From Minisyncoccia bacterium (GTDB taxonomy: Bacteria > Patescibacteriota > Minisyncoccia > Phycocordibacterales > PALSA-1337): DNA of 64,000 nt. Positions 2,176-63,987 of this stretch are shown piece after piece. Under the pieces are notes generated by a model. It was given only the letters and a program-made list of their open reading frames with translations. It had not been told where the DNA came from and did not search any database. How positions within the stretch are numbered: the stretch's first letter is position 1; every line of letters begins with the position of its first letter. The DNA lies in contig JBEKVT010000001.1 in NCBI GenBank assembly GCA_049997795.1, positions 173,222 through 237,221 of the forward strand, in the 5' to 3' direction. The position numbers and the translations under genes were made by a program.

Positions 2176-2184
2176 TGCTATAAT
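2176..2184 (+). promoter_or_regulatory. extended -10 element TGcTATAAT upstream of the 2237 gene
   Basis: catGCTATAATctc about 50 nt upstream of the ATG at 2237; the same 9-mer recurs at many other starts in this window. Confidence 0.4.
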
Positions 2185-2236
2185 CTCTCCTGCCGCAAAT
2201 CCGTCCGCGGCGTCTTACTTCGGTAAACATCTTCCA

Positions 2237-3187
2237 ATGAAAAACTCATATATCTTGGGCGCGGCACTTGCTTCAATGCTCGTCCTCGGCCTGCCGGCCT
2301 TGGTCGGAGCGCAGGGGCCGATCGGCGCCGGAGTCACCACTACTAATAACGCGGTCATTCCCATCCCGCCGCCAGACCTTAGCCCCGGCAGCGTGCTTCC
2401 CGTCCCGCCCACCTCGATCAAAGACAGGCTGGAGAGTGGCTACGACGCGCGCATGCAGAATCTCCGCAATAACGAGGATTACCGGAACGCCGTCATGGGC
2501 ACCACTTCCGGCCCTTGGGCCAGCACGACCGCCAAGCTCCGGAATGAGATCTACAAGGTGCCTTCCCTTCCCGGAGAAACAACGGGGCCGGGAGCAGCGA
2601 TGCGGTTGGCCTCGACCAGCCCGTGGCGCGGGTACGCCGAGGAGACTACCACCGAGCCGCGCCCTTATTTGATGCCGCCTCTCATGAGGAGATTCGCCTC
2701 CTCGACTCCTTTCGCTTCGACCACCATAACGGAACAGGTCGATGCCAAACGCGGCCGGGTAGAGAAGATGCGCGCCGACCTGTTCGCCTGGGCCCAGGAT
2801 CATCTCATAGGCGAGCTCACGCAGGCCTTGGATAATCTGAAGCAGATCGAGAGCCGCATCGCTTCGAGGATCCAGACGGAAACCCAGAACGGCCGCGACA
2901 TGTCGAGCTCCACACGGCTTTTTTCGGTCGCCGACGGCAAGATAAACGAGGCCGATTCGGCCATCAAGGCTCTGGCCGTCTATATGCCGTCCGCTTCTTC
3001 CACGGAAGATATATCCGCTTCGACCACTATAGACCTAGGGCAACCAAGGACGCTGGGCACCGCGGCTATCAAGGCCGTGAATGACGCCAAGCAGGCCTTG
3101 AACGATGTCGTCGCGGCCATCATCGGAGCCCCCGGCCCGAGACCGGGCGAAAACAATCGCCGGAACGCCTCGACGACTATCCAATGA
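2237..3187 (+). CDS. hypothetical secreted/membrane-anchored protein
   Basis: internal ATG chosen at 2237 (MKNSYILGAALASMLVLGLPALVGAQG signal peptide); ORF track extends to 2135 but that extension lacks a signal-peptide context. Confidence 0.5.
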   Translation: MKNSYILGAALASMLVLGLPALVGAQGPIGAGVTTTNNAVIPIPPPDLSPGSVLPVPPTSIKDRLESGYDARMQNLRNNEDYRNAVMGTTSGPWASTTAKLRNEIYKVPSLPGETTGPGAAMRLASTSPWRGYAEETTTEPRPYLMPPLMRRFASSTPFASTTITEQVDAKRGRVEKMRADLFAWAQDHLIGELTQALDNLKQIESRIASRIQTETQNGRDMSSSTRLFSVADGKINEADSAIKALAVYMPSASSTEDISASTTIDLGQPRTLGTAAIKAVNDAKQALNDVVAAIIGAPGPRPGENNRRNASTTIQ

Positions 3188-3223
3188 TCCGAAGATAAAT
3201 TATAATAATCAACCAAAAGAGCC

Positions 3224-3559
3224 ATGGACCAAAACCAACAACAAGCACCACCGATCGGTGGTGCCACGAACGAGAGACAGCCCGCCCCGAGCGGCAACGG
3301 CGAGAAGAGGGTCGGCCCGATCATCGCCACGCTCATCATCGTCTTGGTCCTCATCATCGTCGCCCTGTATCTCTTCGCCTCAAGGATCAATCAGCCGGCT
3401 GTCCCGGAAGATAATTCCACGGCCGCCGGGAACGACAACTCCGGGGCCGTCGCGGCCGACCAATCGGTCCAGCCGGTCGTCGGTACTTCCACCGATCTAG
3501 ATTCCCTGCAGAACGACCTCAATAAGTCTACGACGGGCCTGGACAACCAGAACTTTTGA
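3224..3559 (+). CDS. small single-pass membrane protein
   Basis: 111 aa with one hydrophobic helix IIATLIIVLVLIIVALYLFA. Confidence 0.4.
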   Translation: MDQNQQQAPPIGGATNERQPAPSGNGEKRVGPIIATLIIVLVLIIVALYLFASRINQPAVPEDNSTAAGNDNSGAVAADQSVQPVVGTSTDLDSLQNDLNKSTTGLDNQNF

Positions 3560-3577
3560 GCTGGGCTCTCTCATCAT

Positions 3578-7176: not shown

Positions 7177-7206
7177 TTGACTTTCTCAAATAAGATGTGC
7201 TATAAT
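7177..7206 (+). promoter_or_regulatory. sigma70-type promoter TTGACT-18-TGcTATAAT
   Basis: gcTTGACTttctcaaataagatgTGcTATAATtaa; drives the 7265 membrane-protein gene; leader of about 50 nt with an AAGGAA Shine-Dalgarno before the GTG start. Confidence 0.6.
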
Positions 7207-7264
7207 TAATTTGTATAGTTAGAGCACATTTCCAGCCACATCAACCTCGAAAGAAAGGAAATCT

Positions 7265-7921
7265 GTGAACACAAAGTTGTTTCGCATCACTGGAAGCGAC
7301 GTGTTCGCCGCTTTCCAGGTCTTCATGGCCTATTACTTTACGGTGCCGCAAGTCCGGCGGATGTTCGTCAGCGTCCAAGGCGTGACCATCAATTGGCTCC
7401 TGTGTGCAGCGATCTTCATCGGTCTTTGCTTGTACACGTCGGTCGGTTTATACCGCAAGGACGCTAGCCGTTCGACTCTGCAAGCTTTGGTCATCTACGC
7501 CAATTGGGCCGTCCTGCTCATCCCTTTGGTGACCATCGCCTTCCTGAAATGTGCCTGGACCAGGCAAGACTCGCTGATCTTCTCTCTCATCATGATCTCG
7601 GCTGTGGCTGTGGTCATCTGGGGAAAGTTCAATGGGCATGATCTGGGTCATCCCATCATCCGTGGTATGCTCGTAGGCTTGTTCCGGGTGGTTCCCCACC
7701 TATTCATGGCTTACTGCATCTTCAGTGTCAGGAGCGGACACGGCATAGCGGTAAAGACGGTCATGGCGGCTAATATCACCGCTCTGGCCAGGATCGGCAC
7801 CTTATACCTCTCGGGACGCAAGTCCCATTGGGAAAAAGGTGTACGAGCCCTGCTCTTGGCGGAGTCCGCCAATGAAGTGAGCTGGATGGTTACTACTTTG
7901 ATGTGGTACATCTACCTCTGA
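7265..7921 (+). CDS. hypothetical polytopic membrane protein (GTG start)
   Basis: 218 aa, 5-6 predicted TM helices; lies in a visibly AT-richer segment than its neighbours. Confidence 0.5.
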   Translation: MNTKLFRITGSDVFAAFQVFMAYYFTVPQVRRMFVSVQGVTINWLLCAAIFIGLCLYTSVGLYRKDASRSTLQALVIYANWAVLLIPLVTIAFLKCAWTRQDSLIFSLIMISAVAVVIWGKFNGHDLGHPIIRGMLVGLFRVVPHLFMAYCIFSVRSGHGIAVKTVMAANITALARIGTLYLSGRKSHWEKGVRALLLAESANEVSWMVTTLMWYIYL

Positions 7922-7975: not shown

Positions 7976-8719
7976 TCATTTCGAGATATGACCAGTGTAT
8001 GCCTCCACAGTAAGATTCTGGATTATGCCGGTCATTTTTTCAGGATATTCAATGCACTGCTTTATCGCCTTGGCAACAATGTGTGGGTTTTTCAGCTTAT
8101 GATTTTGAATGCCTTCCTTGGTACGTTCAAATAATTTACCTTTGCCCATACGAAATATATTCTCATGTATACGCGTCGCCGTCATGCCCGGACGGAATAT
8201 GATAAATCTCACAGACGAGTTATCCGGTAATTTTGAGCATTGAGTGAAATACTCTTCAAACTCTTTTTTTGTCTGCGCATATAACTCAACGACTGGATCA
8301 CGGTCGTCCTCCTTAAAAATGTCAGTTGAAATAAACACGACTGTCCCATTCGATTTCCTCAGTAGCGGCAATGTTTTCTGTAAAATATCCATATTGGCTT
8401 GAATGTTGACCTCGCGCACATAGCTTTCTGTATATTCTTTTTGATCGATATCACGTACGCCCGTTACCGCTGCGTTGAGGATAAGAGCATCAAGCGAGCT
8501 GTGAGAATCAATAATTTGGGCAATGAATCCTGTACGACTTCCTGGATTGCCAAGATCAACAGTCATGGCGTTGGCGCATTCAAGTGTTGAGCTAAGCATT
8601 TTGTTCTTGACATCATCACGTGAACATGTAATTACATGCCAAACACAGTGGGTGGAAAACAGCGTCACTAATTCACGCCCAATCCCTGACGAACCACCGG
8701 TAATTAGGATATTTTTCAT
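7976..8719 (-). CDS. short-chain dehydrogenase/reductase (SDR) family oxidoreductase
   Basis: N-terminal Rossmann motif ILITGGSSGIGRELV; start placed at MKNILITGG (ORF track extends to 8782); low-GC codon usage. Confidence 0.75.
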   Translation of the reverse strand: MKNILITGGSSGIGRELVTLFSTHCVWHVITCSRDDVKNKMLSSTLECANAMTVDLGNPGSRTGFIAQIIDSHSSLDALILNAAVTGVRDIDQKEYTESYVREVNIQANMDILQKTLPLLRKSNGTVVFISTDIFKEDDRDPVVELYAQTKKEFEEYFTQCSKLPDNSSVRFIIFRPGMTATRIHENIFRMGKGKLFERTKEGIQNHKLKNPHIVAKAIKQCIEYPEKMTGIIQNLTVEAYTGHISK

Positions 8720-8965
8720 TGTGTTACACACATTATACTTCACCTTATTACCACCCACATCCTGTTTTTCATACAAAAACACGACTTTCTAAAGGAAAGG
8801 AGCGAAAAATGAACAGGCTTGCTCAAAATCTATAAAAATGTCGCAATTCACAGCCCTGTTGACATGGCATTGCCTAAAATACGGCTTAATATATAATAGT
8901 CCCATAGTTCGTAGCTCGGTTGCGTCGGCGCCGAGACCATTTATAAGCATTAAAAGAACACACAG

Positions 8966-9290: not shown

Positions 9291-9304
9291 TGCTTGGCCA
9301 CTTT

Positions 9305-9312
9305 GTGATAAT
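9305..9312 (+). promoter_or_regulatory. extended -10 TGtGATAAT, 8 nt upstream of the ATG (leaderless arrangement)
   Basis: cttTGTGATAATgtaaccgaATG. Confidence 0.35.
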
Positions 9313-9320
9313 GTAACCGA

Positions 9321-9995
9321 ATGACTGAATGCCACACTCTCATAATCTCCGACATCCACCTCGGCTCGAGGGTCTGCCGGGCCGAAAGGGTCTTAGAGGT
9401 CCTGCGAGAGGTCAAGTTCAAGGATCTGATCATAAACGGAGATCTGTTCGATTCCGACACGACGTATAAATTCAACGGCAAGCACTGGGAGGTGGTCTCG
9501 GCCATTGCTGACATCGCCGACAGGCATTACGTGGTCCTGGTCGGCGGCAATCACGGCCGGGAGCTGGATACCTTAGCGAGGAGGATCGGCCTGAGGGTCA
9601 TAGACAATCACGCCTTCACGGTCGGAAAGAGGAATTTCCTTTGCCTGCACGGCGATGAGTTCGATATCTTCATAAAATACCTGCCGATGACGAGTAAGCT
9701 GTTCGCGTGGCTCTATATCTTCATCCAGAGGTTCGGCGGCAAGAAGCAGCGAGTCTCTATATTCATAAAGAGGCTGAGCAAGATAATCCTGGGACTGGAT
9801 CGCAGCCAAAAAAGACTGGCTCTGCGCAAGGGCGCCAAACAACATGCCAATGTCGTCATCTGCTCCCATACGCATATTCCGCACGTCGATACCAGGAACG
9901 ACATCCTCTTCGTCAATTCCGGCTCGTTCTGCGACAACCCTTGCAACTACGTGACGATCGACAAGAGCGGGCTGGTAGAGCTCCGAGAGGTCTAA
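9321..9995 (+). CDS. calcineurin-like metallophosphoesterase
   Basis: motifs SDIHLG, GDLFD, GGNHG and CSHTH characteristic of the metallophosphatase superfamily (LpxH/YfcE-like). Confidence 0.7.
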   Translation: MTECHTLIISDIHLGSRVCRAERVLEVLREVKFKDLIINGDLFDSDTTYKFNGKHWEVVSAIADIADRHYVVLVGGNHGRELDTLARRIGLRVIDNHAFTVGKRNFLCLHGDEFDIFIKYLPMTSKLFAWLYIFIQRFGGKKQRVSIFIKRLSKIILGLDRSQKRLALRKGAKQHANVVICSHTHIPHVDTRNDILFVNSGSFCDNPCNYVTIDKSGLVELREV

Positions 9996-10971: not shown

Positions 10972-11039
10972 AAAGTCACGAGATTATAGCGCAGATTCCA
11001 TATTTACAAAAGGCACCCATCGGGTCCGATCCTGACAAG

Positions 11040-11111: not shown

Positions 11112-11167
11112 GTGCGTCCATAGTAGCGCACATAGGAAAAAAGCGGAAACTGTAGTAGAATCTTCCC

Positions 11168-12655
11168 ATGAAAACGGCTCAAAATAGCCCTATTCCCAAG
11201 GAAGTCACTGACGTCGCCAGAACGCTGGAGAGGGCGGGGTTTCAGGCCTATCTGGTAGGCGGTTGCGTGCGGGATCTCCTGCTCGGCCGCACGCCAAAAG
11301 ACTGGGATTTTGCGACCAACGCCGCGCCGGAGAAAATCCAATCTCTGTTCCCGAAAACCGTCTACGAGAACGCTTACGGGACCGTGATGGTGATAAACGA
11401 ATCGGCCGAGGATGAAAGATTGAGGGCTATCGAGGTGACGCCGTATCGCCTGGAGTCCGGATACGCGGACCGCCGCCACCCCGACTCGGTAAGGTTCAGC
11501 GATAGGATAGATGATGATCTTAAAAGACGCGATTTCACCATAAACGCCCTGGCTGCCAGGCTTTCCGATAATGCCATAAAGGACGTGGTTGATCTGTTCG
11601 GAGGGTTTGGGGATGTAAAGGACAAAATCATCAGGACGGTGGGGGAGGCGGCTGATAGATTCAATGAGGACGCCTTACGCATGATGAGGGCGGTACGCTT
11701 GGCCGTGGAACTCGGATTCAAGATCAGCGACAGCATATTTAAGGCTATGCAGAGCCATAATTCACTGATAAAAGAAGTGTCGGCCGAGAGAGTCCGGGAT
11801 GAATTCACCAGGATAATCATGTCAAAAGGTCCAAAGAAGGGATTGGAATTGCTTCACGATTCCGGGATCTTAAAATATATCGTTCCGGAGCTAGAAAGAG
11901 GGCTCGGCGTCAAACAAAACCAAGCCCATGCCTATGACGTCTGGGAACATCTTTTAAGGAGCCTCCAACATGCCGCCGACAAGGAATGGGGGCTCGAAGT
12001 ACGCCTGGCCGCCCTTTTTCATGATATCTCGAAGCCGGAAACCAAGGGTTTTTCGCCGGAGACGAAACAACCGACCTTTTACGGCCATGAATTGAAAGGT
12101 TCACGTGAAACGAGAAAAATCCTTGAAAGGCTAAGATTTTCACGGGCAACGGTCGAAAGGGTCGTTAAATTGGTCCGTTGGCACATGTTCTTTGCCGACA
12201 CTGAGACGATAACGCTGTCGGCAGTCCGCCGGATGATAGTCAATGTCGGCAAGGAGAACATCTGGGACCTGATGAATTTGCGGGTCTGCGACCGCATAGG
12301 GACCGGCAGACCTAAGGAAAATCCATACCGGCTAAGGAAATATAAGGCGATGATCGAGGAAGCGCTTCATGACCCGATTTCCGTCGGCATGCTTAAAATA
12401 GACGGGAATAGGGTGATGGAGGTTTGCGCCATACCAGCCGGACCAAAAATCGGGAACATACTCCATGCGCTTTTTAACGAAGTCCTGGATGATCCCTCGT
12501 CGAATAGGGCTGACCATCTCGAGAAAAGGGCTCTCGAATTAGCGCGTCTTCCCGAGAAAGAGCTTGTCAAACTTGGCACGGAAGGAAAGGAACGGAAGGA
12601 AAGCGAGGAAGAGAAAAATATAGGGGAAATAAGGAAGAAACACCATGTCCTTTAA
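11168..12655 (+). CDS. cca: CCA-adding tRNA nucleotidyltransferase with HD domain
   Basis: pol-beta nucleotidyltransferase motif GGCVRDLLLGRTPKDWDFAT; C-terminal HD domain (LFHDISKP); a TAGAAT hexamer lies 6 nt upstream of the ATG. Confidence 0.85.
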   Translation: MKTAQNSPIPKEVTDVARTLERAGFQAYLVGGCVRDLLLGRTPKDWDFATNAAPEKIQSLFPKTVYENAYGTVMVINESAEDERLRAIEVTPYRLESGYADRRHPDSVRFSDRIDDDLKRRDFTINALAARLSDNAIKDVVDLFGGFGDVKDKIIRTVGEAADRFNEDALRMMRAVRLAVELGFKISDSIFKAMQSHNSLIKEVSAERVRDEFTRIIMSKGPKKGLELLHDSGILKYIVPELERGLGVKQNQAHAYDVWEHLLRSLQHAADKEWGLEVRLAALFHDISKPETKGFSPETKQPTFYGHELKGSRETRKILERLRFSRATVERVVKLVRWHMFFADTETITLSAVRRMIVNVGKENIWDLMNLRVCDRIGTGRPKENPYRLRKYKAMIEEALHDPISVGMLKIDGNRVMEVCAIPAGPKIGNILHALFNEVLDDPSSNRADHLEKRALELARLPEKELVKLGTEGKERKESEEEKNIGEIRKKHHVL

Positions 12656-13163: not shown

Positions 13164-13931
13164 TCACCTCATGACAAGCTCTATCGGGCAATGGTCAGAA
13201 CCCATGATTTGGTCAAGGATCCTGGTTTTATCAACCCTTGGAAGCAGGCCCAGACTTACGAAAAAGTAGTCGATCCGCCAGCCGATATTGCGGTCTCTGG
13301 CGAACGTCTTCATGTCCCAGTATGTGTATTTGTCTTCGGCGGCAGGGTAAAAATGCCGGAAAACATCGACGTAGCCGGCGGCGAGCACGCCGTCTATCCA
13401 GGCCCGTTCGACCGGCAGGAAGCCGGTGTTCTCCTCATTCTCTTTCGGCCTTGCCAAATCGATCTCTGTGTGGGCCGTATTCACGTCCCCGCAGAATATG
13501 ACTTCATGTCCTTTTGCTCGCAGCCCATTGATGTACTTCAGAAATTCATCGTAATATCGGAGTTTGAAATCAAGCCGGTCTGGACCGCCGCCGCCATTCG
13601 GAAAATATATGTTCACGAGGACAAAATCTTTGAAAAACGAGGTCAAGGCGCGTCCTTCCTGGTCGTATTTCTCTATACCCAGGCCGTACTCGACTTTTTC
13701 CGGTTCGGTCTTCGAATACATGGCCACGCCGCTGTAACCTTTCTTATGTTTGGAGTGGTCGAAGTATGAAAAATAGCCGGGAGGGTTGCGGACGCCTTCC
13801 TCAAGCTGGTCCGCCTCGGCTTTGACTTCCTGGATACAATAAATATCGGGCGACTGGTTAAGGAACCAGTCAAAACCGCCCTTTTTGACGTTCGCCCGCA
13901 GACCGTTCACGTTCCAGGAGATGATCCTCAT
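13164..13931 (-). CDS. xth: exodeoxyribonuclease III (AP endonuclease)
   Basis: MRIISWNVNGLRA, IYCIQEVK and C-terminal SDHCPI motifs of the ExoIII/APE1 family. Confidence 0.9.
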   Translation of the reverse strand: MRIISWNVNGLRANVKKGGFDWFLNQSPDIYCIQEVKAEADQLEEGVRNPPGYFSYFDHSKHKKGYSGVAMYSKTEPEKVEYGLGIEKYDQEGRALTSFFKDFVLVNIYFPNGGGGPDRLDFKLRYYDEFLKYINGLRAKGHEVIFCGDVNTAHTEIDLARPKENEENTGFLPVERAWIDGVLAAGYVDVFRHFYPAAEDKYTYWDMKTFARDRNIGWRIDYFFVSLGLLPRVDKTRILDQIMGSDHCPIELVMR

Positions 13932-13952
13932 GTTGTTGATTATATCAATTAA

Positions 13953-14882: not shown

Positions 14883-14959
14883 ATTGTATCATGGCCCTAA
14901 TAAACGGAATATTCACGGTCAGTTGCACAAAAACGCTATTCGTGCTATTGTTATAAATC

Positions 14960-15226: not shown

Positions 15227-15285
15227 TTTTGAGGGGAGTGCAGTCATAGGGCTGGCGCGCTTTTAATAGAACATAAAATTTTCAC

Positions 15286-51150: not shown

Positions 51151-51170
51151 ATACGCGGTATCATTCAGCC

Positions 51171-51614: not shown

Positions 51615-51658
51615 TCCGTCGAGAGTGTTTTGGTCCTTCGATAGGGTACAATAAGGGC

Positions 51659-54115: not shown

Positions 54116-54127
54116 TATACTTATCCC

Positions 54128-54760
54128 ATGCTCTACGTCTTCCATGGTCCTGATACGCGGGCGGCGGCGAAGAAAGCGCACACGCTCATAGATTCGTTGC
54201 GTGCCAAAAGGCCCGACGCGGCATTCGAGAAGGTCGACGCCGATTCCTGGAGCCCCGCGATCGTCGAGGGCCATCTCGGCGGGCAGGGATTATTCTCGAG
54301 CAAATACATCGTATTCCTTGACAGGGTCACGGAGAACCAGGAAGCGAAGGAGAAGATCGCCGATTTCATCAGGGCGATGGAAGAATCGCCGAACATCTTC
54401 ATCGTGCTGGAAGGGAAGCTGGGCGCCGAGCTGAAGAGAGCATTTCAGAAAGGCGCCGAGAGGGTCGTCGAATGCGAGCCGAAAGCCAAGAGCGCGCCGT
54501 TCAAGAAAGATGAATTCAATGTCTTCGCCCTGGCCAATGCCGTGGGCCGGCGCGAGCCGCTCAAGGCCTGGATCATGTATCGGCGGGCCGTGGAAGCGGG
54601 GGTCGCCGCGGAGAACATCCTCGGCGTCCTGTTCTGGAAAGCCAAATCAATGCCGTCACCGGCGCTCGCCCGGGACATCCTTCTCTTGTATCACGAGGGC
54701 CATCGCGGCGCCCGCGATCTCGAGCTCGGCTTGGAGAGGATGCTTTTAGCGATCCGATAG
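54128..54760 (+). CDS. DNA polymerase III delta subunit-like protein (short)
   Basis: MLYVFHGPD ... LFSSKYIVFLD pattern resembling the HolA N-terminal domain; only 210 aa. Confidence 0.45.
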   Translation: MLYVFHGPDTRAAAKKAHTLIDSLRAKRPDAAFEKVDADSWSPAIVEGHLGGQGLFSSKYIVFLDRVTENQEAKEKIADFIRAMEESPNIFIVLEGKLGAELKRAFQKGAERVVECEPKAKSAPFKKDEFNVFALANAVGRREPLKAWIMYRRAVEAGVAAENILGVLFWKAKSMPSPALARDILLLYHEGHRGARDLELGLERMLLAIR

Positions 54761-55684: not shown

Positions 55685-55724
55685 GTTAGTGACGATAGGT
55701 TATGTGATAATGTACCAATTATAG

Positions 55725-56189
55725 ATGATTATCCTTCTGCTCGACAATGTAAGAAGCGTCTATAACACCGGCTCCATCTTCCGCACGGCCGAAACGCTGG
55801 GGATCTCCAAGATCTATTGCGCCGGCACGACGCCCGCGCCAGTCGACCGATTCGGCCGCAAGAGGAAGGATTTCGCTAAAGTAGCCCTGGGCGCGGAAGA
55901 GTCGATAGAATGGGAGCGCGTCGGACGGGCAGAGCCGGTTGTCGAGGCCCTTAAGAGCAGGGGATTCGGAGTCATCGCGCTCGAGCAGGCGGAAGGCTCC
56001 GTCGATTACAAAGAAGTCAGGCCCCGGAAGAGATCTTTGATCATCCTCGGCAACGAAGTCGACGGCGTCTCCGAGCCATTATTGGAACTGTCCGATGTCA
56101 TCGCCGAGATCCCGATGAGAGGGAGGAAAGAGTCGTTGAACGTGTCGGTAGCGGCTGGGATATTCCTCTACCGCCTATTTGACGAGTAA
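55725..56189 (+). CDS. SpoU/TrmH-family RNA 2'-O-methyltransferase
   Basis: SPOUT motifs LDNVRSVYNTGSIFRTAE, LILGNEVDGVS, IPMRGRKESLNVSVAAGIFLY. Confidence 0.8.
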   Translation: MIILLLDNVRSVYNTGSIFRTAETLGISKIYCAGTTPAPVDRFGRKRKDFAKVALGAEESIEWERVGRAEPVVEALKSRGFGVIALEQAEGSVDYKEVRPRKRSLIILGNEVDGVSEPLLELSDVIAEIPMRGRKESLNVSVAAGIFLYRLFDE

Positions 56190-57116
56190 TCTCTGGTGCT
56201 TGTCGCAGAAATGGGCGCTGCGGCCGCCGACGACCTTCCTGACAATAGTGCCCTTGCATCCCGGTTTGCTGCATTTTTCGCCAGTCTTTTGGTAAGCGTG
56301 GTGGTGCTCCTGGAACTTGCCGGGTTTGCCGTCGATGTTCCGGTAATCGGACATAGAGTCGCCGCCGAAATCGATGCCCCTCTCGAGGACCGTTCTGATG
56401 GCCGAGTGCAGCTTTTTAAGAAGAGAATCAGGGATGTTCCTCACTCGTTCCTCCGGATTCAAGCCGGCCCGCCACAGAGCCTCGTCGCTGTAGATGTTGC
56501 CGATGCCGGCTATCACGCCCTGGTCCATCAGGGCCTGTTTGATCCTGCCGGTTGGCTTGCGCGCCAGTCTTTCCTTGAATGTCTTGAAATCGAAGCTTTT
56601 TTCCAGAGGATCGGGGCCGATTGATTCTAAGTGAATGGTCCTGTCGAGGTCTTTCTCTCGGATGAGAGTGACTTTCGCGAATTTCCTCATATCCGACAGG
56701 ACGACGTGCTTTTTATCCGAAAGGACCATGACGAAATGGATGAACCGGTTGAACGGGTCAGAAAGAGAAGACGGTTCGCCCGGGGCCGGCATCCACGAGC
56801 CCTCCTTGCCGTTCTTCTTGAGGATGTAGCGGCCGTACATAAGGTGCCCGGTCATCTTCATGTGGACCAAGATCACCGATCTCTCCCGGCCCTTCTCGAT
56901 ACGGATCAAGACATTCTTGGCCTTGCGGTCTACGCCGACGATCCTAGCGCCAGAGACCTTCCGCCTGAAATATCTGAAGTAAGGCGGGTCCTTTATGGAA
57001 TCTTTGCCTTTGTGAAAACGGCTGCCGTAATCGGTCCATACGCCGACAATCTTCAGGCCGCGAACGCGCCTATTCAACCCGCTTGCTGTGGTTTGGACTT
57101 CCGGTAGTTCCGGCAT
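56175..57116 (-). CDS. mutM: formamidopyrimidine-DNA glycosylase (Fpg/Nei family)
   Basis: N-terminal MPELPEV with catalytic Pro2/Glu3; H2TH region; C-terminal zinc finger CSKPGC...HFCDKHQ. Confidence 0.85.
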   Translation of the reverse strand: MPELPEVQTTASGLNRRVRGLKIVGVWTDYGSRFHKGKDSIKDPPYFRYFRRKVSGARIVGVDRKAKNVLIRIEKGRERSVILVHMKMTGHLMYGRYILKKNGKEGSWMPAPGEPSSLSDPFNRFIHFVMVLSDKKHVVLSDMRKFAKVTLIREKDLDRTIHLESIGPDPLEKSFDFKTFKERLARKPTGRIKQALMDQGVIAGIGNIYSDEALWRAGLNPEERVRNIPDSLLKKLHSAIRTVLERGIDFGGDSMSDYRNIDGKPGKFQEHHHAYQKTGEKCSKPGCKGTIVRKVVGGRSAHFCDKHQRLLVK

Positions 57117-57151
57117 GCGGTCATGATACACGAATGCTACAATAACCGCAC

Positions 57152-58423
57152 ATGCGCTATCTTCTGACGTCATTCGTCCTCCTGGTGCTTCTCGGCGGCC
57201 CCTGGTTCATGTCGAATTATCCGAGTCAGGCCATGGCGATCACCTCGGCCGTCGAAAGGTCCGGCAACGAGCTGGCCGCCGTCATCCTTTACCACAATCC
57301 GGTCACGATAGCCGGCCTGAAGTCGAGCTACGACGCGGCGGGAGCGCCGGAAGGCCCTAAGGTGCGCATCCTCATCGTGCCCGGCCACGAGCCGAACTAC
57401 GGCGGCGCCAAGTTCGGGGACCTCAAGGAACGCGACTTGAACGTGGAGCTTGCCCAGGATCTCATGGGTTTCCTCCTTCAGAACGGCCGGTACGAGGTCT
57501 TCACCACTCGGGACAAGAGTTCCTGGACGCCCATCTTCGCTTCCTATTTCAAGAACGATTGGGACGCCATCGTCGCTTGGGAACAGGCCCATAAGCAGGA
57601 ATTCGCCGACATGGTCCGTCTTGGAGAGATGAAGCAAGTCGCGCCGGTCGCCTTCCACAACGACGCGCCGGATACCGTGGCCCTGCGTCTGTACGGCATC
57701 GACAAGTGGGTCGGCGACAGCGGCGTAAGCGTCGTCATCCACGTCCATTTCAACGATTTTCCCCGCCCCGACCAATCTTCGCCAGGCAAGTACTCTGGGT
57801 TCGCCATATACGTGCCGGAGGGCCAGTACTACAATAGCTCGACCACCAAGGCCGTGGCCAACGCCATTGCCGGCCGTCTCAGCGAGTACAATCCCGTATC
57901 CGATCTGCCCACTGAACAATCCGGCGTGGTGGAAGATCAGGACCTGATAGCCGTCGGTTCGTTCGACTCGGTCGACGCCGCCAGCATGCTCATCGAATAC
58001 GCCTACCTGTATGAGCCGCAGATCCTCAATCCGGCGGTGCGCCCGGTCTTCCTGAAAGAGCTGGCGTATGAAACGTATCTCGGCCTGCAGGATTTCTTCG
58101 GATCGTCGACCACCACCAATCTCGGCGGACTGGTTTACGATACCCTGGTCCTGCCGCATACCTGGAACAAGCCGATCACTGGCAAGAATGATCTTCAGAG
58201 CGACGTCTTCGCTCTGCAGACGGCCCTCATCAAAGACGGCGATTATCCGCCGGCGGGCAAGTCCATGAATGACTGTCCCAGAACGGGCAGGGTCGGCGCT
58301 TGCACCACTGCGGCCATTGCGACCTTCCAGGAGAAATACGACATTTCATCAGACCAGAGAGGGGTGGCGGGGCAGGGAACGATCGACGAGCTGAATCACT
58401 TATACTCGGTTAGAGCTATGTGA
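57152..58423 (+). CDS. N-acetylmuramoyl-L-alanine amidase (Amidase_3 type) with C-terminal peptidoglycan-binding domain
   Basis: signal peptide; ILIVPGHEPNYGGA ... ERDLNVELAQDL ... VVIHVHFND pattern of amidase_3; C-terminal LQTALIKDGDYP...IATFQEKYDI resembles PG_binding_1. Confidence 0.65.
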   Translation: MRYLLTSFVLLVLLGGPWFMSNYPSQAMAITSAVERSGNELAAVILYHNPVTIAGLKSSYDAAGAPEGPKVRILIVPGHEPNYGGAKFGDLKERDLNVELAQDLMGFLLQNGRYEVFTTRDKSSWTPIFASYFKNDWDAIVAWEQAHKQEFADMVRLGEMKQVAPVAFHNDAPDTVALRLYGIDKWVGDSGVSVVIHVHFNDFPRPDQSSPGKYSGFAIYVPEGQYYNSSTTKAVANAIAGRLSEYNPVSDLPTEQSGVVEDQDLIAVGSFDSVDAASMLIEYAYLYEPQILNPAVRPVFLKELAYETYLGLQDFFGSSTTTNLGGLVYDTLVLPHTWNKPITGKNDLQSDVFALQTALIKDGDYPPAGKSMNDCPRTGRVGACTTAAIATFQEKYDISSDQRGVAGQGTIDELNHLYSVRAM

Positions 58424-59854: not shown

Positions 59855-60432
59855 CCGAGCTTCTTCAAGGCCGCCTTGACCTTGGCGCCGGTATCGGAGA
59901 TGCTCTTTTCTATCTTCTTCAAGGCATCGCGCGACTCGTCAGCGTCGTAACCGAGGGCCTTCAGAGCCTCGATGGCGTCGAGGTCGCTAGACATCTCTGC
60001 GGAAATAGCCGAGCCGCCTCCTTCCATGGCCGCTCCGCCGAGCCTGTCTTTCAATTCGAGCACGATCTTTTCCGCGGTCTTCTTGCCGACGCCGGAGACC
60101 TTGACCAGATGCGCGGTCGCTCCGGTGCGGATGGCTCCGATGAGAGCGTCGCTCGACACGAGCGATAATATATTCATGGCCGATCTCGGGCCGATGCCGG
60201 AGACTGTTATGAGGAGTTCGAAGAAATCCCTTTCTTTCTTGCTCGGGAAGCCGTAGAGGTCCATGGCGTCTTCGCGGACGGCAAGATGCGTCCAGAGCCC
60301 GGCTTCGGCCCCCGGTTTCAATCCACGGAGCGCGTCGCCTGTCATGAAGACCTTGTATCCCACGCCGCCGACGCCGACGACGGCATAGTTGCCGCTCAGT
60401 TCTTCTACTTTGCCGCGAAGCGTCGAGATCAT
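59851..60432 (-). CDS. ruvA: Holliday junction DNA helicase RuvA
   Basis: MISTLRGKV start, helix-hairpin-helix LITVSGIGPRSAMNIL and second HhH; 4-nt overlap with the downstream Mur ligase gene. Confidence 0.88.
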   Translation of the reverse strand: MISTLRGKVEELSGNYAVVGVGGVGYKVFMTGDALRGLKPGAEAGLWTHLAVREDAMDLYGFPSKKERDFFELLITVSGIGPRSAMNILSLVSSDALIGAIRTGATAHLVKVSGVGKKTAEKIVLELKDRLGGAAMEGGGSAISAEMSSDLDAIEALKALGYDADESRDALKKIEKSISDTGAKVKAALKKLG

Positions 60433-60506
60433 GCGCCAATCATAGCATTTCTTTACTTTCAGGGCATGATATGATAGTTTCTCTCCATTCGCCCGAGCCA
60501 CGGATC

Positions 60507-60929: not shown

Positions 60930-61394
60930 TCAGAACCCGAGCCACTCGAGGAAGCGCTTCAGGAAGGGCTCGTTATGCTCGGTCTCGGCGATGTATTTCA
61001 GCAGGACCTCCCGGACTTCCTCTGGGTCGACGTCGCTTATGTAGGCGACGATGAGCGGCATGAAGAGCTTGCGCGATTTGAGCAGGACCTTCGGCGGGAA
61101 TTCGTCGTGAGGGATCCAAAAAGAATCGAGCGAGAGGAAGGGATAGAGCTTCTCGTCGAAGACGATGCCCCTATCATTGACCTCATAGTAGACGTTCTGC
61201 GGCGGCTTGGAGGCGTGGAGGACCAGGGCCACGGCGGCCACGACGATGAAGATGCCCGTCAGGACCTCGCCGAACATGAAAGACACGGCGGCCAGAGCCA
61301 GAGTGACGATGCCGACGGCCCAATACCAGTCGGGCCTCTTCTTCGTGTAGAGATGCGCCGGAGCGCTCCAGGAGATCAAGGCTTCGGTGGCCAT
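60930..61394 (-). CDS. hypothetical membrane protein
   Basis: start chosen at MATEALIS because the longer track ORF would overlap tRNA-Ser; two TM helices (WAVGIVTLALAAVSFMF, IFIVVAAVALVLHA). Confidence 0.45.
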   Translation of the reverse strand: MATEALISWSAPAHLYTKKRPDWYWAVGIVTLALAAVSFMFGEVLTGIFIVVAAVALVLHASKPPQNVYYEVNDRGIVFDEKLYPFLSLDSFWIPHDEFPPKVLLKSRKLFMPLIVAYISDVDPEEVREVLLKYIAETEHNEPFLKRFLEWLGF

Positions 61395-61400
61395 GCCGGA

Positions 61401-61409
61401 ATTATAGCA
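61401..61409 (-). promoter_or_regulatory. extended -10 TGcTATAAT (minus strand) 6 nt upstream of the start at 61394
   Basis: reverse complement of attatagca. Confidence 0.45.
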
Positions 61410-61525: not shown

Positions 61526-61587
61526 GTTCCCGGCTATCATAGGCCAAAAAACGTGGCTCGGCAAAGATTTCGTGCTATCTTATCTCC

Positions 61588-61980
61588 ATGCGGTCTATCG
61601 GCATAGATTACGGCTCAAGGCGCGTGGGCGTGGCGGTCTCCGACGAATCCGGCAGATTCGCCCTGCCGGTCGCGGTCCTCGTCAACTCGCCGGAGCTTGC
61701 CGCGGAGATAAGGAAGATCGCGGCGGAGGGCGAGACCAAGGAAGTCGTGCTCGGCGAATCCAGGAAATACGACATGAGCCCGAACCCTGTCCTGCCGGAC
61801 ATCATGGCCTTCAAGAGCCGCCTGGAGAGCGCAGGCCTTTCGGTCCATCTGGAACCGGAATTCATGACCACGGCCCAGGCCGAGCGCACCCAGGGCAGGC
61901 ACGACAAGACGGACGCTTCGGCGGCGGCCCTTATCCTACAGAGCTTCCTGGACCGGCGACACGGCGGCGAAAAGCCATGA
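61588..61980 (+). CDS. ruvX: Holliday junction resolvase-like protein RuvX/YqgF
   Basis: MRSIGIDYGSRRVGVAVSD N-terminus typical of YqgF. Confidence 0.85.
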   Translation: MRSIGIDYGSRRVGVAVSDESGRFALPVAVLVNSPELAAEIRKIAAEGETKEVVLGESRKYDMSPNPVLPDIMAFKSRLESAGLSVHLEPEFMTTAQAERTQGRHDKTDASAAALILQSFLDRRHGGEKP

Positions 61981-62348: not shown

Positions 62349-62357
62349 ACCGGAGCC

Positions 62358-62957
62358 ATGAACGCCCTGTCATTCATCGATCCCAAATACATCATCTCCG
62401 CCTTTGGCCTTTTGGGCGTCGTCGCCGCAGTCTTCATGGAGACCGGCTGCTTCTTCGGCTTCTTCTTCCCCGGCGACTCGCTCTTATTCACTGCCGGGCT
62501 CCTGGCCTCTCAGCATTACCTGCCTGTTGCTTGGCTCGCCTTCGGCGTATTCCTGGCCGCGGTCGCGGGCGACAGCACGGGCTACGCCTTCGGTAAGAAA
62601 GTCGGGCCGGCTCTGTTCGCCAAAGACGACTCGATCTTCTTCAATAAGAGACATATTGTCCGGGCGCAGCATTTTTACGAGAAGTACGGCGTGAAGACGA
62701 TCGTCCTGGCCAGATTCGTGCCGGTCGTGCGGACCTTCGCGCCCATCGTGGCTGGCGTAGGAGAGATGAGATACGGAAGATTCTTCGCCTGGAACGTCGT
62801 CGGCGGCCTCGCCTGGACGCTCCTCCTTGTTGGCCTGGGCTACGGTTTCGGTTCGGTCATCCCGGATCCAGATCGTTATGTCCTGCCGGCGGTGGCGATC
62901 ATCATCATCTTGTCGGTCATGCCGGCGCTGCGGCAGATCGCGAAAGGGGGCCGGTGA
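62358..62957 (+). CDS. DedA family membrane protein
   Basis: FFPGDSLLFTAGLLAS and YGVKTIVLARFVPVVRTFAPIVAGVGEM motifs of DedA/SNARE-associated proteins. Confidence 0.8.
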   Translation: MNALSFIDPKYIISAFGLLGVVAAVFMETGCFFGFFFPGDSLLFTAGLLASQHYLPVAWLAFGVFLAAVAGDSTGYAFGKKVGPALFAKDDSIFFNKRHIVRAQHFYEKYGVKTIVLARFVPVVRTFAPIVAGVGEMRYGRFFAWNVVGGLAWTLLLVGLGYGFGSVIPDPDRYVLPAVAIIIILSVMPALRQIAKGGR

Positions 62958-62994
62958 GACGGCCTCGGGCAGCGGGAGACATCGCCGCCGCCTA

Positions 62995-63003
62995 TGCTAC
63001 AAT
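62995..63003 (+). promoter_or_regulatory. extended -10 TGcTACAAT 6 nt upstream of the pilM start
   Basis: ctaTGCTACAATttacccATG. Confidence 0.4.
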
Positions 63004-63009
63004 TTACCC

Positions 63010-63987
63010 ATGCTCGCTTCATTCGCGCTCTTCAAGCTCTTCCCGCCGCCGGCCTTCATGCTCATGCCGCACGCGGGGCTCGACGTGTCGGACGACGCTA
63101 TCCGGGTCTTGTCGTACTCCGGCTTCGGCCGCGGTCGGCGGCTCTCGATCCACGGCGCCGTCGACTTGCCCCAAGGTCTCATCGAAGGCGGCGACGTGAA
63201 GGATGAGAAGGAATTCGTCTCCCGCCTCGGCGAGTTCGGCCGCGCTCACGGCCTGTCGTACGTCAAAGCGTCGATCCCCGAGGAGAAAGCTTATCTCTTT
63301 CAGACGGACGTGCCGGCCGCGGAGCGGAAGGTCATGGAACAGAACATCGAATTCAGGCTGGAAGAGAACGTGCCCCTCTCCGCGTCGGATGCCGTCTTCT
63401 GTTTCGATCCCGTGTCTTATGCCGGGACCGGCAGCCTCCGGGTGAGCGTCACCGCCGTGCCCTTGGCGTACGTCGAACATTACACGTCGCTCCTCCGGAG
63501 CGCCGGGCTTGTGCCGGTCGCCTTCGAGACGGCCCCCCGGTCGATTGCCCGGGCGGTTGTCCCCGCCGGATCCGACGACACCAGGCTCGTTGTCCATGCC
63601 ATGAGCCGTAAGACCGGCATATACATCTTGTCCGGCCGGATCACGAGCTTCGCCTCCACCGTGGCTCGAGATGCGGAACCGTCCGACGGCTCCCCGGCCG
63701 ATGCCCCCGTCCTGCTCGAAAAAGAGATAGACCGGGTGCTCTCGTACTGGTCTTCTCACGGCACCGGCAAGGCCGTGAAGGAGGCCCTTCTGGTCGGCCG
63801 GAACGCCGCTGCCCTGGAAGACGCCTGCCGCCGGGGGAGCGGCGAAACCCCCCTTACGGTCCGCCTCGCCGACGTGTGGCGCAATTCCCTAGACGTCGAC
63901 CGGCGCTTGCCGCCGATATCGCGGGCGGATTCCCTGGAATACGCGGTAGCCGCCGGCCTGGCTCTTGACGCTTCTTCCCCCGCCTAG
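63010..63987 (+). CDS. pilM: type IV pilus assembly protein PilM
   Basis: actin-like ATPase fold protein: N-terminus LFPPPAFMLMPHAGLDVSDDAIRVLSY, central FCFDPVSYAG, SLLRSAGLVPVAFETAP; start chosen at MLASFALF. Confidence 0.7.
   Translation: MLASFALFKLFPPPAFMLMPHAGLDVSDDAIRVLSYSGFGRGRRLSIHGAVDLPQGLIEGGDVKDEKEFVSRLGEFGRAHGLSYVKASIPEEKAYLFQTDVPAAERKVMEQNIEFRLEENVPLSASDAVFCFDPVSYAGTGSLRVSVTAVPLAYVEHYTSLLRSAGLVPVAFETAPRSIARAVVPAGSDDTRLVVHAMSRKTGIYILSGRITSFASTVARDAEPSDGSPADAPVLLEKEIDRVLSYWSSHGTGKAVKEALLVGRNAAALEDACRRGSGETPLTVRLADVWRNSLDVDRRLPPISRADSLEYAVAAGLALDASSPA

What the first reader, a model, noticed from the sequence alone, without database searches (positions are those of the whole stretch)
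2176..63010. Recurrent TGcTATAAT-type -10 elements 6-12 nt upstream of start codons: many leaderless transcription units
The near-identical motif tgcTATAAT, or close variants such as TGtGATAAT, TGaTAAAAT, TATAAA and TAGAAT, appears immediately upstream of many genes with only 6-13 nt to the ATG and no Shine-Dalgarno. These include the metallophosphoesterase gene at 9321 (gap 8), cca at 11168 (gap 6), the NYN-domain gene at 15286 (gap 6), 18216 (gap 7), 26764 on the minus strand (gap 7), 26842 (gap 12), 31915 (gap 11), 35510 (gap 7), dnaN at 42336 (gap 6), pilB at 50530 on the minus strand (gap 10), the SpoU/TrmH methyltransferase at 55725 (gap 13), 61394 on the minus strand (gap 6), ruvX at 61588 (gap 8) and pilM at 63010 (gap 6). 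With transcription starting about 7 nt after the -10, these mRNAs would begin at or within a few nt of the AUG. By contrast, genes with longer leaders (7265, 36608, 50665) have clear AAGGAA/GGAGG ribosome-binding sites. This implies mixed leaderless and Shine-Dalgarno-dependent initiation, and it is useful for correcting start-codon calls in this genome.
Basis: seen in the sequence. Interest (0 to 1): 0.5.

Follow-up and report, generated by a model that had tools for sequence, protein, structure and literature searches.

The report
Leaderless genes in a CPR bacterium
In this small uncultured (Patescibacteria/CPR) bacterium about a third of all genes have a promoter "-10 box" sitting 6-8 bases in front of the ATG, so their mRNAs should start at the start codon with no ribosome-binding site. 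This way of expressing genes is well known in Actinobacteria and Deinococcus, but I found no report of it for this lineage.

Summary
All 14 listed sites exist; one gap is misquoted (61588 is 6, not 8). Against independent JGI gene calls, 24 of 70 genes have a -10-like hexamer (TAnnnT) exactly 6-8 nt upstream of the start. Local shuffling predicts about 3 (maximum 11 in 2000 shuffles). The modal gap is 6, which puts the A of ATG at the expected transcription start.

The motif behaves as a promoter, not a ribosome-binding site:
- TGn precedes it six times more often than expected.
- There is no -35 element.
- The same motif precedes tRNA genes.
- Only ATG, not GTG, is enriched downstream of it.

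Shine-Dalgarno motifs are not enriched upstream of any gene class in the window.

The arrangement is conserved in 21 loci from related Patescibacteria (71 cases against 7.9 expected, p=3e-42). It recurs at orthologous genes (RuvA 11/11, TsaE about 12/16) while the flanking sequence diverges. It is not significant in 8 loci from more distant Patescibacteria or in 50 non-CPR loci, and the non-CPR loci show strong SD signals.

This is the known "leaderless" (GeneMarkS-2 group C) architecture in a lineage where I found no published report. No transcription start has been mapped, so leaderlessness remains an inference.

The parts
9304..9323 (+). tgtGATAAT-8 nt-ATG, metallophosphoesterase gene
   Evidence: JGI start 9321
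11156..11170 (+). TAGAAT-6 nt-ATG, CCA-adding enzyme gene
13929..13947 (-). TGaTATAAT-7 nt-ATG, Exo_endo_phos gene. The promoter lies 21 nt after the xerC/D-like gene.
14874..14891 (-).
14943..14962 (+).
15274..15288 (+). TAAAAT-6 nt-ATG, NYN-domain gene
18203..18218 (+). TATAAT-7 nt-ATG, 479-aa hypothetical gene, 24 nt after the pnp stop
20126..20140 (+). TAGGAT-6 nt-ATG, comM-like Mg-chelatase gene (not listed)
23026..23044 (+). TGgTAAGAT-7 nt-ATG, uvrD-like helicase gene (not listed)
26762..26780 (-). TGaTATAAT-7 nt-ATG, PG-binding protein gene. JGI called TTG 26806 as the start; ATG 26764 is preferred.
26821..26844 (+). TGcTATAAT-12 nt-ATG, first gene of the T4SS-like cluster. The predicted 5' UTR is about 5-6 nt.
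31898..31917 (+). TATAAT-11 nt-ATG, prgI-like gene (short leader)
35494..35512 (+). TGaTAAAAT-7 nt-ATG, 348-aa hypothetical gene
40150..40166 (-). TAACAT-8 nt-ATG, yidC, 11 nt after rnpA (not listed)
40649..40668 (-). TGcTATGCT-8 nt-ATG of rpmH (L34, 40517-40651). JGI did not call this gene.
40506..40521 (-). TATAAT-7 nt-ATG, alternative leaderless start of rnpA. The same TATAAT contains the rpmH stop codon and a TAATG coupled start.
42317..42338 (+). dnaN start. It has TAAGAT at gap 13 or the weak TATAAA at gap 6, so it is ambiguous in this genome. It is a clean gap-6 site in relatives L009 and L015.
50528..50549 (-). TGcTATAAT-10 nt-ATG, pilB (557-aa form)
51159..51173 (+). TATCAT-6 nt-ATG, tsaE, directly after terminator 51117-51142 (not listed)
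51647..51661 (+). TACAAT-6 nt-ATG, polA (not listed)
54116..54130 (+). TATACT-6 nt-ATG, 210-aa gene. The -10 abuts the polA stop codon (not listed).
55703..55727 (+). TGtGATAAT-13 nt-ATG, SpoU/TrmH methyltransferase gene (short leader of about 6-7 nt)
57114..57128 (-). TATCAT-6 nt-ATG, fpg (not listed)
57135..57154 (+). TGcTACAAT-8 nt-ATG, amidase gene (not listed)
60430..60447 (-). TGcTATGAT-6 nt-ATG, ruvA. The -10 before the aligned ATG is kept in 11/11 orthologues (not listed).
61392..61409 (-). TGcTATAAT-6 nt-ATG, 154-aa hypothetical gene, just downstream of tRNA-Ser
61573..61590 (+).
62995..63012 (+). TGcTACAAT-6 nt-ATG, pilM-like gene
8717..8737 (-). TATAAT-12 nt-ATG 8719, the true start of the SDR gene (MKNILITGGSSGIG). 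JGI called GTG 8782.
10972..10988 (-). TATAAT 11 nt upstream of the mature 5' end of tRNA-Gly(gcc). It is one example of the -10 boxes found 8-14 nt upstream of all 7 tRNA genes in the window.
2176..2239 (+). TGcTATAAT with a 52-nt leader to ATG 2237 (leadered unit, no SD)
7198..7267 (+). TGcTATAAT, a 58-nt gap between hexamer and start, AAAGGAA, then GTG 7265 (leadered unit with an SD-like element)
50627..50667 (+). CAGAAT, then GGAGG 10 nt before ATG 50665 (leadered unit with a canonical SD)
36590..36610 (+). AAGGGGGG 5 nt before ATG 36608, the T4SS pilin gene. A signal peptide supports this start, and the gene is probably co-transcribed from the 35510 promoter.

Best explanation
The window comes from a 657-kb contig of an uncultured Patescibacteria (CPR; Parcubacteria/Paceibacteria-like) bacterium. 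Most of its transcription units are driven by -35-independent, extended -10 promoters (consensus TGnTAnAAT) recognised by the housekeeping sigma-70-type RNA polymerase.

In about one third of all genes, and about half of first-in-unit genes, the hexamer ends 6-8 nt before the ATG. Transcription should then start on the A of the start codon (pyrimidine at -1, A at +1), giving an mRNA that begins 5'-pppAUG. Such leaderless mRNAs carry no Shine-Dalgarno sequence. They are translated by direct binding of a ribosome carrying fMet-tRNA and IF2 (70S, or 30S-IF2-tRNA) to the 5'-terminal AUG. A further roughly 15% of genes have the -10 box 9-14 nt upstream, giving leaders of 2-8 nt that are too short for an SD.

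Downstream genes in operons mostly overlap or abut the previous stop codon (ATGA overlaps or gaps of 4-13 nt). They are probably translated by termination-reinitiation coupling. Only a handful of leadered genes carry an SD-like element.

Shown here: the motif, its exact placement, its statistics, its promoter-type features and its conservation in relatives. Inferred: the transcription start position, the mode of ribosome recruitment and the coupling.
For: Placement: the peak is at gap 6 > 7 > 8 (14, 6 and 4 of 70 genes), against 3.06 +/- 1.67 after local shuffling. The annotation-free test gives 18 against 2.6.

Promoter identity:
- TG at -15/-14 in 13/34 sites against 2.1 expected, and no information at -35.
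- All 7 tRNA genes in the window have TAnnnT 8-14 nt upstream of the mature 5' end, 4 of them with TGn.
- A terminator is followed directly by the -10 and the ATG at tsaE.

Start-site context: C in 36/70 genes at -1 and A at +1.

Translation signature:
- ATG is enriched after the motif (24 against 7 in the window, 90 against 19 in relatives). GTG is not (5 against 5.5; 6 against 9).
- SD 4-mers are at or below chance, while non-CPR control loci scored by the same method show 336 against 102.

Gene starts are independently supported. JGI calls coincide at 12 of the 14 listed sites. Pfam N-terminal domains align from residue 1-2 for DnaN, RuvX and SpoU.

Conservation: 21 related Patescibacteria loci with GC 30-58% give 71 against 7.9 (p=3e-42), with the peak at gap 6. 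Orthologues of ruvA (11/11), tsaE (about 12/16), polA, amidase, dnaN and S20 keep a -10 at 6-8 nt (9 in a few) before the aligned ATG, although the flanks are unalignable. Eighteen hold-out genes outside the window give 5 at gap 6-8.

Precedent: the same signature (Pribnow box 6-8 nt from the start) marks experimentally verified leaderless genes in M. tuberculosis and D. deserti (PMC6028130, PMC4007540, PMC3160421).
Against: - No transcription start data exist for this organism or its clade. The one attempt to find RNA-derived contigs returned nothing.
- Four genes have the motif only 11-24 nt after an upstream same-strand gene. They may also be read from upstream promoters as internal cistrons.
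- Some assigned hexamers are weak (for example TATCTT, TATTGT, TAGGAT, AAAAAT). About 3 of the 24 are expected by chance.
- The 16S rRNA 3' end was not available, so loss or retention of the anti-SD is unknown.
- Five tRNAs just outside the window have their best -10 box farther away (17-25 nt) or none of their own, so the tight tRNA spacing is not universal.
- The sample is 88 genes of a genome of roughly 0.7 Mb or more.
Confidence: 0.85

Rival explanations
1. The A/T-rich hexamer is a non-Shine-Dalgarno ribosome-binding signal on leadered mRNAs, as in Bacteroidetes-type 'group B' genomes. On this view it is read by the ribosome rather than by RNA polymerase.
For: The motif lies where an RBS would lie (6-8 nt from the start). 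SD is absent. A few instances occur only 11-24 nt after an upstream gene on the same strand.
Against: - The consensus is the sigma-70 -10 box, with invariant A2 and T6 and an upstream TGn.
- The same motif precedes tRNA genes, which are not translated.
- It is absent from the 16 genes in the 70-gene set (window plus its 4.4-kb extension) that overlap or abut the previous gene and score below threshold, whereas a general RBS should be present there.
- C(-1)/A(+1) at the ATG fits transcription start-site selection.
- The strict ATG requirement is typical of leaderless initiation.
Confidence: 0.04
2. The -10 boxes are real promoters, but they are minor or conditional internal promoters. Most protein would come from longer transcripts started farther upstream and translated by an SD-independent mechanism acting on unstructured leaders.
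For: Several sites lie within or just after upstream genes (18216, 13931, 40152, 54128). Leadered promoters with 32-68-nt leaders and no SD also exist (2176, 8892, S20, DoxX2).
Against: Most gap-6-8 sites are at divergent or well-separated unit starts where no other -10 box is seen upstream. A terminator directly precedes the tsaE promoter. Conservation of the exact spacing to the ATG across distant orthologues is not needed for a mere internal promoter. ATG specificity indicates that the 5' end matters for translation.
Confidence: 0.09
3. The pattern is a by-product of AT-rich intergenic composition, of gene callers choosing starts next to a learned motif, or both.
For: Intergenic DNA is more AT-rich than coding DNA: the -10 hit rate is 1.4% against 0.5% genome-wide. 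Some gene finders do learn promoter motifs.
Against: Local shuffles give 3.06 against 24 observed, and permuted matrices fail. Other A3T3 hexamers show no association. The annotation-free first-ATG test reproduces the peak. Non-CPR control loci of similar GC show no comparable peak (2.6% against 17-21% of ORFs; 31 against 20.5 expected). Pfam and orthologue N-termini confirm the starts.
Confidence: 0.02

Closest known systems
Leaderless transcriptome of Actinobacteria (Mycobacterium tuberculosis and M. smegmatis, Corynebacterium, Streptomyces); GeneMarkS-2 'group C' genomes
   Same: A TAnnnT -10 box sits 6-8 nt upstream of the start codon of first genes in operons. The -35 is weak or absent. 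These genes have no SD. The start codon lies at the 5' end of the mRNA (PMC6028130).
   Different: Group C genomes are described as using SD sites for the remaining genes, whereas here SD-like motifs are at chance level in every class. The proportion here (about 34% of genes, about half of unit-first genes) is at the top of the 25-50% range predicted for group C. GTG is not used here, though mycobacteria tolerate GUG (my own knowledge). The lineage is Patescibacteria, with a genome of roughly 0.7 Mb or more, not a high-GC Gram-positive.
Deinococcus deserti leaderless mRNAs (de Groot et al. 2014, PMC4007540)
   Same: Leaderless mRNAs form the majority or near-majority: 60% of mRNAs, 47% starting exactly at the initiation codon. 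A -10-like motif lies immediately upstream of the start.
   Different: D. deserti was validated by dRNA-seq and proteogenomics. Here the evidence is sequence-only. The phylum is different.
'TA-led' genes of Zheng et al. 2011 (PMC3160421)
   Same: This is the same operational signature: a TA-like signal about 10 bp upstream of the translation start, taken to indicate leaderless genes. They reported more than 20% of genes in Actinobacteria and Deinococcus-Thermus.
   Different: That survey of 953 bacterial genomes predates CPR genomes, so this lineage was not covered.
Extended -10 (TGn) promoters of E. coli and Gram-positive bacteria
   Same: TG lies one base upstream of the -10 hexamer and compensates for a missing -35 (established knowledge). 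Here TGn is present in 13/34 sites and -35 carries no information.
   Different: In model organisms these promoters are not systematically positioned so that +1 falls on the start codon.
Leaderless tRNA genes of Nanoarchaeum equitans (Randau et al. 2008; from memory, not checked here)
   Same: Promoters are placed very close to tRNA genes, so 5' leaders are minimal.
   Different: Here predicted leaders are about 1-18 nt rather than zero, and an RNase P protein gene (rnpA, 40164-40517) is present. This is a resemblance only.

Membership tests
Bacterial leaderless-rich genome (GeneMarkS-2 group C / 'TA-led' genes) | [quoted passage not shown] | tested here: met
   24/70 genes at gap 6-8 with mode 6, against 3.06 +/- 1.67 by shuffling. 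About 22 of 45 unit-first genes by my count from the table.
Bacterial leaderless-rich genome (GeneMarkS-2 group C / 'TA-led' genes) | The transcription start coincides with the start codon (5' UTR 0 to about 5 nt) by dRNA-seq or 5'-RACE. | not testable with these tools
   No RNA data are available. A 37-mer of rpsO found no contig in the metagenome collection.
Bacterial leaderless-rich genome (GeneMarkS-2 group C / 'TA-led' genes) | Leaderless genes have no Shine-Dalgarno sequence. | tested here: met
   1 of 24 gap-6-8 genes has an SD-like 4-mer, against 2.7 expected.
Bacterial leaderless-rich genome (GeneMarkS-2 group C / 'TA-led' genes) | The remaining genes (operon-internal or leadered) use SD-type RBS sites. 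| tested here: not met
   5/36 against 5.4 expected in the window. There is no positional SD peak. Related loci show only a modest SD peak (44 against 20.3), while non-CPR loci show 336 against 102.
Bacterial leaderless-rich genome (GeneMarkS-2 group C / 'TA-led' genes) | The upstream motif is a promoter element, not an RBS. | tested here: met
   TGn is enriched 6-fold. The motif precedes tRNA genes. It is absent from overlapping or abutting genes.
Bacterial leaderless-rich genome (GeneMarkS-2 group C / 'TA-led' genes) | A 5'-terminal AUG is preferred as the initiation codon. | tested here: met
   All 24 gap-6-8 starts are ATG. ATG is enriched but GTG is not, in the window and in 21 related loci.
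Non-SD RBS genomes (GeneMarkS-2 group B, Bacteroidetes-type) | The same A-rich motif occurs upstream of all genes, including internal operon genes, on leadered mRNAs. | tested here: not met
   16 overlapping or abutting internal genes lack the motif. The motif carries sigma-70-specific TGn and an invariant T6, and it occurs at tRNA genes.
Extended -10, -35-independent sigma-70 promoters | TG at -15/-14, a TAnnnT hexamer, and little or no -35 conservation. | tested here: met
   The 25 gap-6-8 promoters (24 plus the corrected 26764 start) aligned on the hexamer show T 15/25 and G 17/25 at the two positions, T1 23/25, A2 25/25, T6 25/25, and at most 0.35 bit at every position upstream of the TG dinucleotide.

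The most novel reading that the evidence does not exclude
A clade of Patescibacteria (this organism and relatives with about 43-70% PolA identity, GC 30-58%) may have largely abandoned Shine-Dalgarno-guided initiation. First cistrons would be leaderless, with +1 on the AUG. Downstream cistrons would be reinitiated by stop-start coupling. Even many tRNA genes are driven by promoter-proximal -10 boxes. On this reading, 5'-end or 70S-type initiation is the default mode in a bacterial lineage with reduced ribosomes. That would make it a third major leaderless-rich bacterial group after Actinobacteria and Deinococcus-Thermus, and a natural model for SD-independent translation.
Probability: 0.35. 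Interest if true: 0.65.

Novelty: new member of a known kind. Interest (0 to 1): 0.45.

Why it matters
1. Annotation. Start codons in CPR/Patescibacteria genomes assembled from metagenomes are called by tools tuned to SD sites. In this 64-kb window at least 4 of about 64 genes were given wrong starts and one ribosomal protein gene (rpmH) was missed. The -10/ATG rule resolves three of the four starts and locates rpmH; the T4SS pilin start rests instead on a signal peptide and an SD-like element.

2. Biology. CPR bacteria have reduced ribosomes and few biogenesis factors (PMC12641178). A clade in which roughly a third to a half of genes are leaderless and SD use is undetectable links that reduction to an SD-independent, possibly ancestral, initiation mode. 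That link becomes testable.

3. Practical use. Transcription units, promoters and probable transcription starts can be read directly from sequence in organisms that cannot be cultured. This helps in interpreting metatranscriptomes and in designing expression constructs for the few cultivable CPR systems.

4. Evolution. The trait appears specific to a clade within Patescibacteria: it is strong in 21 close loci and not significant in 8 more distant ones. That offers a gain-or-loss contrast for comparative study.

Tried and rejected
- Two-hexamer (-35 + -10) promoter scan of 44-64 kb: 13 sites against 6.1 expected, and few coincide with gene starts. It is uninformative because these promoters lack a -35.
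- Search for RNA-derived contigs with a 37-nt rpsO probe in metagenome contigs: 0 hits. The collection does not even hold the source contig, so no 5'-end evidence could be obtained.
- Search for a 16S rRNA 3' end in all fetched loci, to read the anti-SD: none present.
- Rfam at gathering and at permissive thresholds: only tRNAs, and no leader, riboswitch or ncRNA that would explain the leadered genes.
- The orphan promoter region 10602-10808(-) folded as RNA: z = -1.36, so it is not convincingly structured.
- My own crude codon-usage gene caller missed several genes. I replaced it with JGI calls plus an annotation-free test.
- Literature searches for leaderless + Patescibacteria / CPR / Parcubacteria / Saccharibacteria / TM7x found no relevant report. 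The paper with the only CPR transcription-start data set (N. lyticus, PMID 35975994) is not held in the library.
- I first thought ATATAT was over-represented (54 counts). That was double counting of a palindrome on both strands; there is no repeat.

Full report
**What the window is.**
The 64-kb window (GC about 57%) is part of a 657-kb JGI metagenome contig, Ga0427927_000007 of sample 3300038416. It carries dnaA/dnaN, ruvABC, polA, type IV pilus genes and a T4SS-like cluster. The closest PolA relatives among GTDB species representatives (43-70% identity) are MAGs (metagenome-assembled genomes) labelled Parcubacteria, Patescibacteria group, Campbellbacteria, Kaiserbacteria, Paceibacterota or (by automatic labelling) Saccharibacteria. 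The organism is therefore a CPR/Patescibacteria bacterium, most likely of the Parcubacteria/Paceibacteria type.

**Checking the observation.**
All 14 promoter/ATG pairs and the three 'leadered' examples are present at the stated coordinates. There are two small errors:
- The gap at 61588 is 6 nt (TGCTATCTT-atctcc-ATG), not 8.
- The dnaN 'TATAAA' lacks the conserved last T. The better hexamer there, TAAGAT, is 13 nt upstream.

I mapped the JGI gene calls for the same contig onto the window. With a 4.4-kb extension this gave 70 genes.

**Is it more than chance?**
- Exact TATAAT occurs 23 times on both strands. Nine are followed within 4-13 nt by an ATG opening an ORF of at least 100 codons. The other 19 permutations of A3T3 give 0-2 each.
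- With a textbook -10 weight matrix, hits upstream of the 70 starts pile up at gap 6 (14 genes), 7 (6) and 8 (4). About one per gap is expected from the intergenic hit rate.
- Shuffling the 20 nt upstream of every start gives 3.06 +/- 1.67 genes (maximum 11 in 2000 shuffles), against 24 observed. Among 720 column permutations of the matrix, only those that preserve the TATAAT consensus reach 24.
- The signal does not depend on annotation. Using only the first ATG of every ORF of at least 120 codons gives 18 against 2.6.
- A blind scan for '-10, 5-8 nt, ATG, ORF of at least 25 codons' returns 30 hits. Of these, 22 are annotated starts or in-frame alternative starts.

Within the window, 35 starts have a -10 box at 4-14 nt and 24 have one at 6-8 nt. 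These counts use three corrected starts and include rpmH and the alternative rnpA start.

By my count from the table, about 22 of 45 first-in-unit genes are strictly leaderless-type. About 10 more would have leaders of only 2-8 nt, and about 13 have longer leaders.

**Promoter or ribosome-binding site?**
Several features identify the motif as a sigma-70 -10 element.
- Aligned on the hexamer, the 25 gap-6-8 sites (24 plus the corrected 26764 start) show T1 23/25, A2 25/25 and T6 25/25. TG lies one base upstream (T 15/25, G 17/25). Over the 34 strong sites, TGn occurs 13 times against 2.1 expected. No position upstream of the TG dinucleotide reaches 0.4 bit, so there is no -35. These are extended -10 promoters.
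- All seven tRNA genes in the window have TAnnnT, four of them with TGn, 8-14 nt upstream of the mature 5' end. An RBS has no business there.
- Five further tRNAs just outside the window are less tidy. Their best -10 boxes are at 17-25 nt, or the tRNA is co-transcribed. Leaders are therefore short but not uniformly minimal.
- The base before the ATG is C in 36 of 70 genes. This is the usual pyrimidine(-1)/purine(+1) preference of transcription start selection.
- A strong terminator (51117-51142) is followed within 17 nt by the tsaE -10 box and ATG.
- Sixteen genes that overlap or abut the preceding gene lack the motif. A general RBS should be present at such genes.

**Translation signature.**
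Downstream of -10-like hexamers at gap 6-8, ATG is enriched: 24 against 7 in the window and 90 against 19 in 21 related loci. GTG is not enriched: 5 against 5.5 and 6 against 9. All 24 leaderless-type genes start with ATG.

Shine-Dalgarno 4-mers show no positional peak. They are at chance level in every class: 1/24 against 2.7, 1/10 against 0.9 and 5/36 against 5.4. The same crude method gives a very strong SD peak in 50 non-CPR control loci (336 against 102).

A few leadered genes do have plausible SD elements: GGAGG before 50665, AAAGGAA before 7265 and AAGGGGGG before 36608. SD use is therefore possible but rare, and 'mixed initiation' overstates it.

Internal genes mostly overlap the upstream stop (seven ATGA overlaps) or follow it by 4-13 nt. 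This suggests termination-reinitiation coupling, which is an inference.

**Conservation.**
The annotation-free test gave these results on the fetched loci:

| Group | ORFs | -10 at gap 6-8 | Expected |
|---|---|---|---|
| 21 loci from the closest Patescibacteria (GC 30-58%) | 342 | 71 (peak at gap 6, 43 cases) | 7.9 (p=3e-42) |
| 8 loci from more distant Patescibacteria (Sung-, Uhr-, Kerfeldbacteria-like) | 111 | 6 | 3.6 (not significant) |
| 50 non-CPR loci | 1175 | 31 | 20.5 |

At orthologous genes the -10/ATG arrangement is kept although the surrounding DNA is unalignable:
- ruvA: 11/11, including three of the distant group.
- tsaE: about 12/16.
- polA: at least 8 relatives.
- Also the amidase gene, dnaN, S20 and the DoxX-like gene.

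Selection therefore maintains the spacing between hexamer and start codon. This is expected if the 5' end of the mRNA must be the AUG.

**Start-codon corrections.**
The promoter rule, checked against protein features, corrects the JGI annotation at several genes.
- The SDR gene starts at ATG 8719 (MKNILITGGSSGIG, with TATAAT 12 nt upstream), not at GTG 8782.
- The PG-binding gene starts at 26764, not at TTG 26806.
- pilB starts at 50530, as three of the four contigs' annotations already have it.
- The T4SS pilin gene starts at 36608, giving the signal peptide MAAALLALALMTPLAASA, not at 36986.
- rpmH (44 aa, 40517-40651, minus strand, with TGCTATGCT 8 nt upstream) was not called at all.

**Comparison with what is known.**
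A Pribnow box 6-8 nt upstream of the start codon is the defining signature of GeneMarkS-2 'group C' genomes. That group covers 90% of Actinobacteria and 97% of Deinococcus-Thermus, with 25-50% of operons predicted leaderless (PMC6028130). It is also the signature of the 'TA-led' genes of Zheng et al. (PMC3160421). dRNA-seq confirmed it in M. tuberculosis and in D. deserti, where 60% of mRNAs are leaderless (PMC4007540).

The present case meets every sequence-level criterion of that kind. It departs in one respect: the non-leaderless genes show no SD enrichment.

Full-text searches combining 'leaderless' with Patescibacteria, CPR, Parcubacteria, Saccharibacteria or Nanosynbacter found no report of this architecture in CPR bacteria. 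The only CPR organism with mapped transcription starts in the library is Nanosynbacter lyticus, a different class, with 188 starts (PMC12641261). The absence of a report in this library is not proof that none exists.

**Verdict.**
- It is a new lineage-level member of a well-known kind, not a new mechanism.
- The main uncertainty is that no transcription start has been mapped.
- The most interesting open possibility is that this clade has almost entirely dispensed with SD-guided initiation. Testing that needs the 16S 3' tail and whole-genome counts.
- Interest is moderate (0.45).

Noticed in passing
window 10002-11111 (-), 55230-55305 (+), 60793-60867 (+), 61438-61525 (-); L089 12457-16188: Every tRNA gene in the window has its own -10-like box 8-14 nt upstream of the mature 5' end, which predicts 5' leaders of about 1-8 nt. 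Of five tRNAs just beyond the window, four have boxes at 17-25 nt and one is co-transcribed. An RNase P protein gene (rnpA) is present.
   Followed up: partly
window 40517-40651 (-): rpmH (ribosomal protein L34, [22 protein letters not shown]...) is not in the JGI gene calls. Its stop codon lies inside a TATAAT and overlaps the rnpA ATG (TAATG). rnpA could therefore be translated by coupling or from a second ATG 7 nt after that TATAAT.
   Followed up: partly
window 40671-40690 and 10602-10899: DnaA-box-like 9-mers (CTATCCACA, TTATCAACA) lie in the rpmH-dnaA spacer. The AT-rich 298-nt gap between tRNA-Gly(gcc) and the UPF0102 gene also contains TGTGGAT/TATCCAC motifs and an orphan TATAAT (10815-10820, minus strand). 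That gap has no Rfam hit and no significant fold (z = -1.36). I did not resolve whether it is an origin-like region or encodes an unknown RNA.
   Followed up: partly
window 58420-58551: A long hairpin lies between the convergent amidase and Mur-ligase genes. It was picked up only as weak matches to plant miRNA-precursor models, and is probably a bidirectional terminator.
   Followed up: no
window 26842-39366: This is a T4SS-like gene cluster: PrgI-like, TraC-like and VirB4/TraG-type ATPase genes, a T4SS-pilin-domain protein with a signal peptide, and several large hypothetical proteins. Internal promoters lie at 31915 and 35510. It resembles the Patescibacteria T4SS described in bioRxiv 10.1101/2025.01.22.634366.
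   Followed up: no
window 2176-2237, 7198-7265, 8892-8966, 60463-60507, 55684-55723 (-): A minority of strong TGnTATAAT-type promoters drive leaders of 32-68 nt (hyp316, hyp218, HU, S20, DoxX-like). Most of these leaders carry no SD, and how they are translated is unexplained. pnp has a 227-nt upstream spacer with no nearby -10 box.
   Followed up: no
window 8719/8782, 26764/26806, 36608/36986, 50530/50665, 24979/24991: The public gene calls disagree with the promoter-guided and protein-feature-guided starts at four or five genes. ksgA may start at 24991 (TATGAT, 7 nt, ATG) rather than at 24979.
   Followed up: partly
L032, L033, L071 (other Patescibacteria): ruvA, and in L032 also rpsT, keep a -10 box 6-9 nt before the ATG even in more distant Patescibacteria whose loci show no overall leaderless peak. 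Individual leaderless genes may therefore be older than the clade-wide trait.
   Followed up: no
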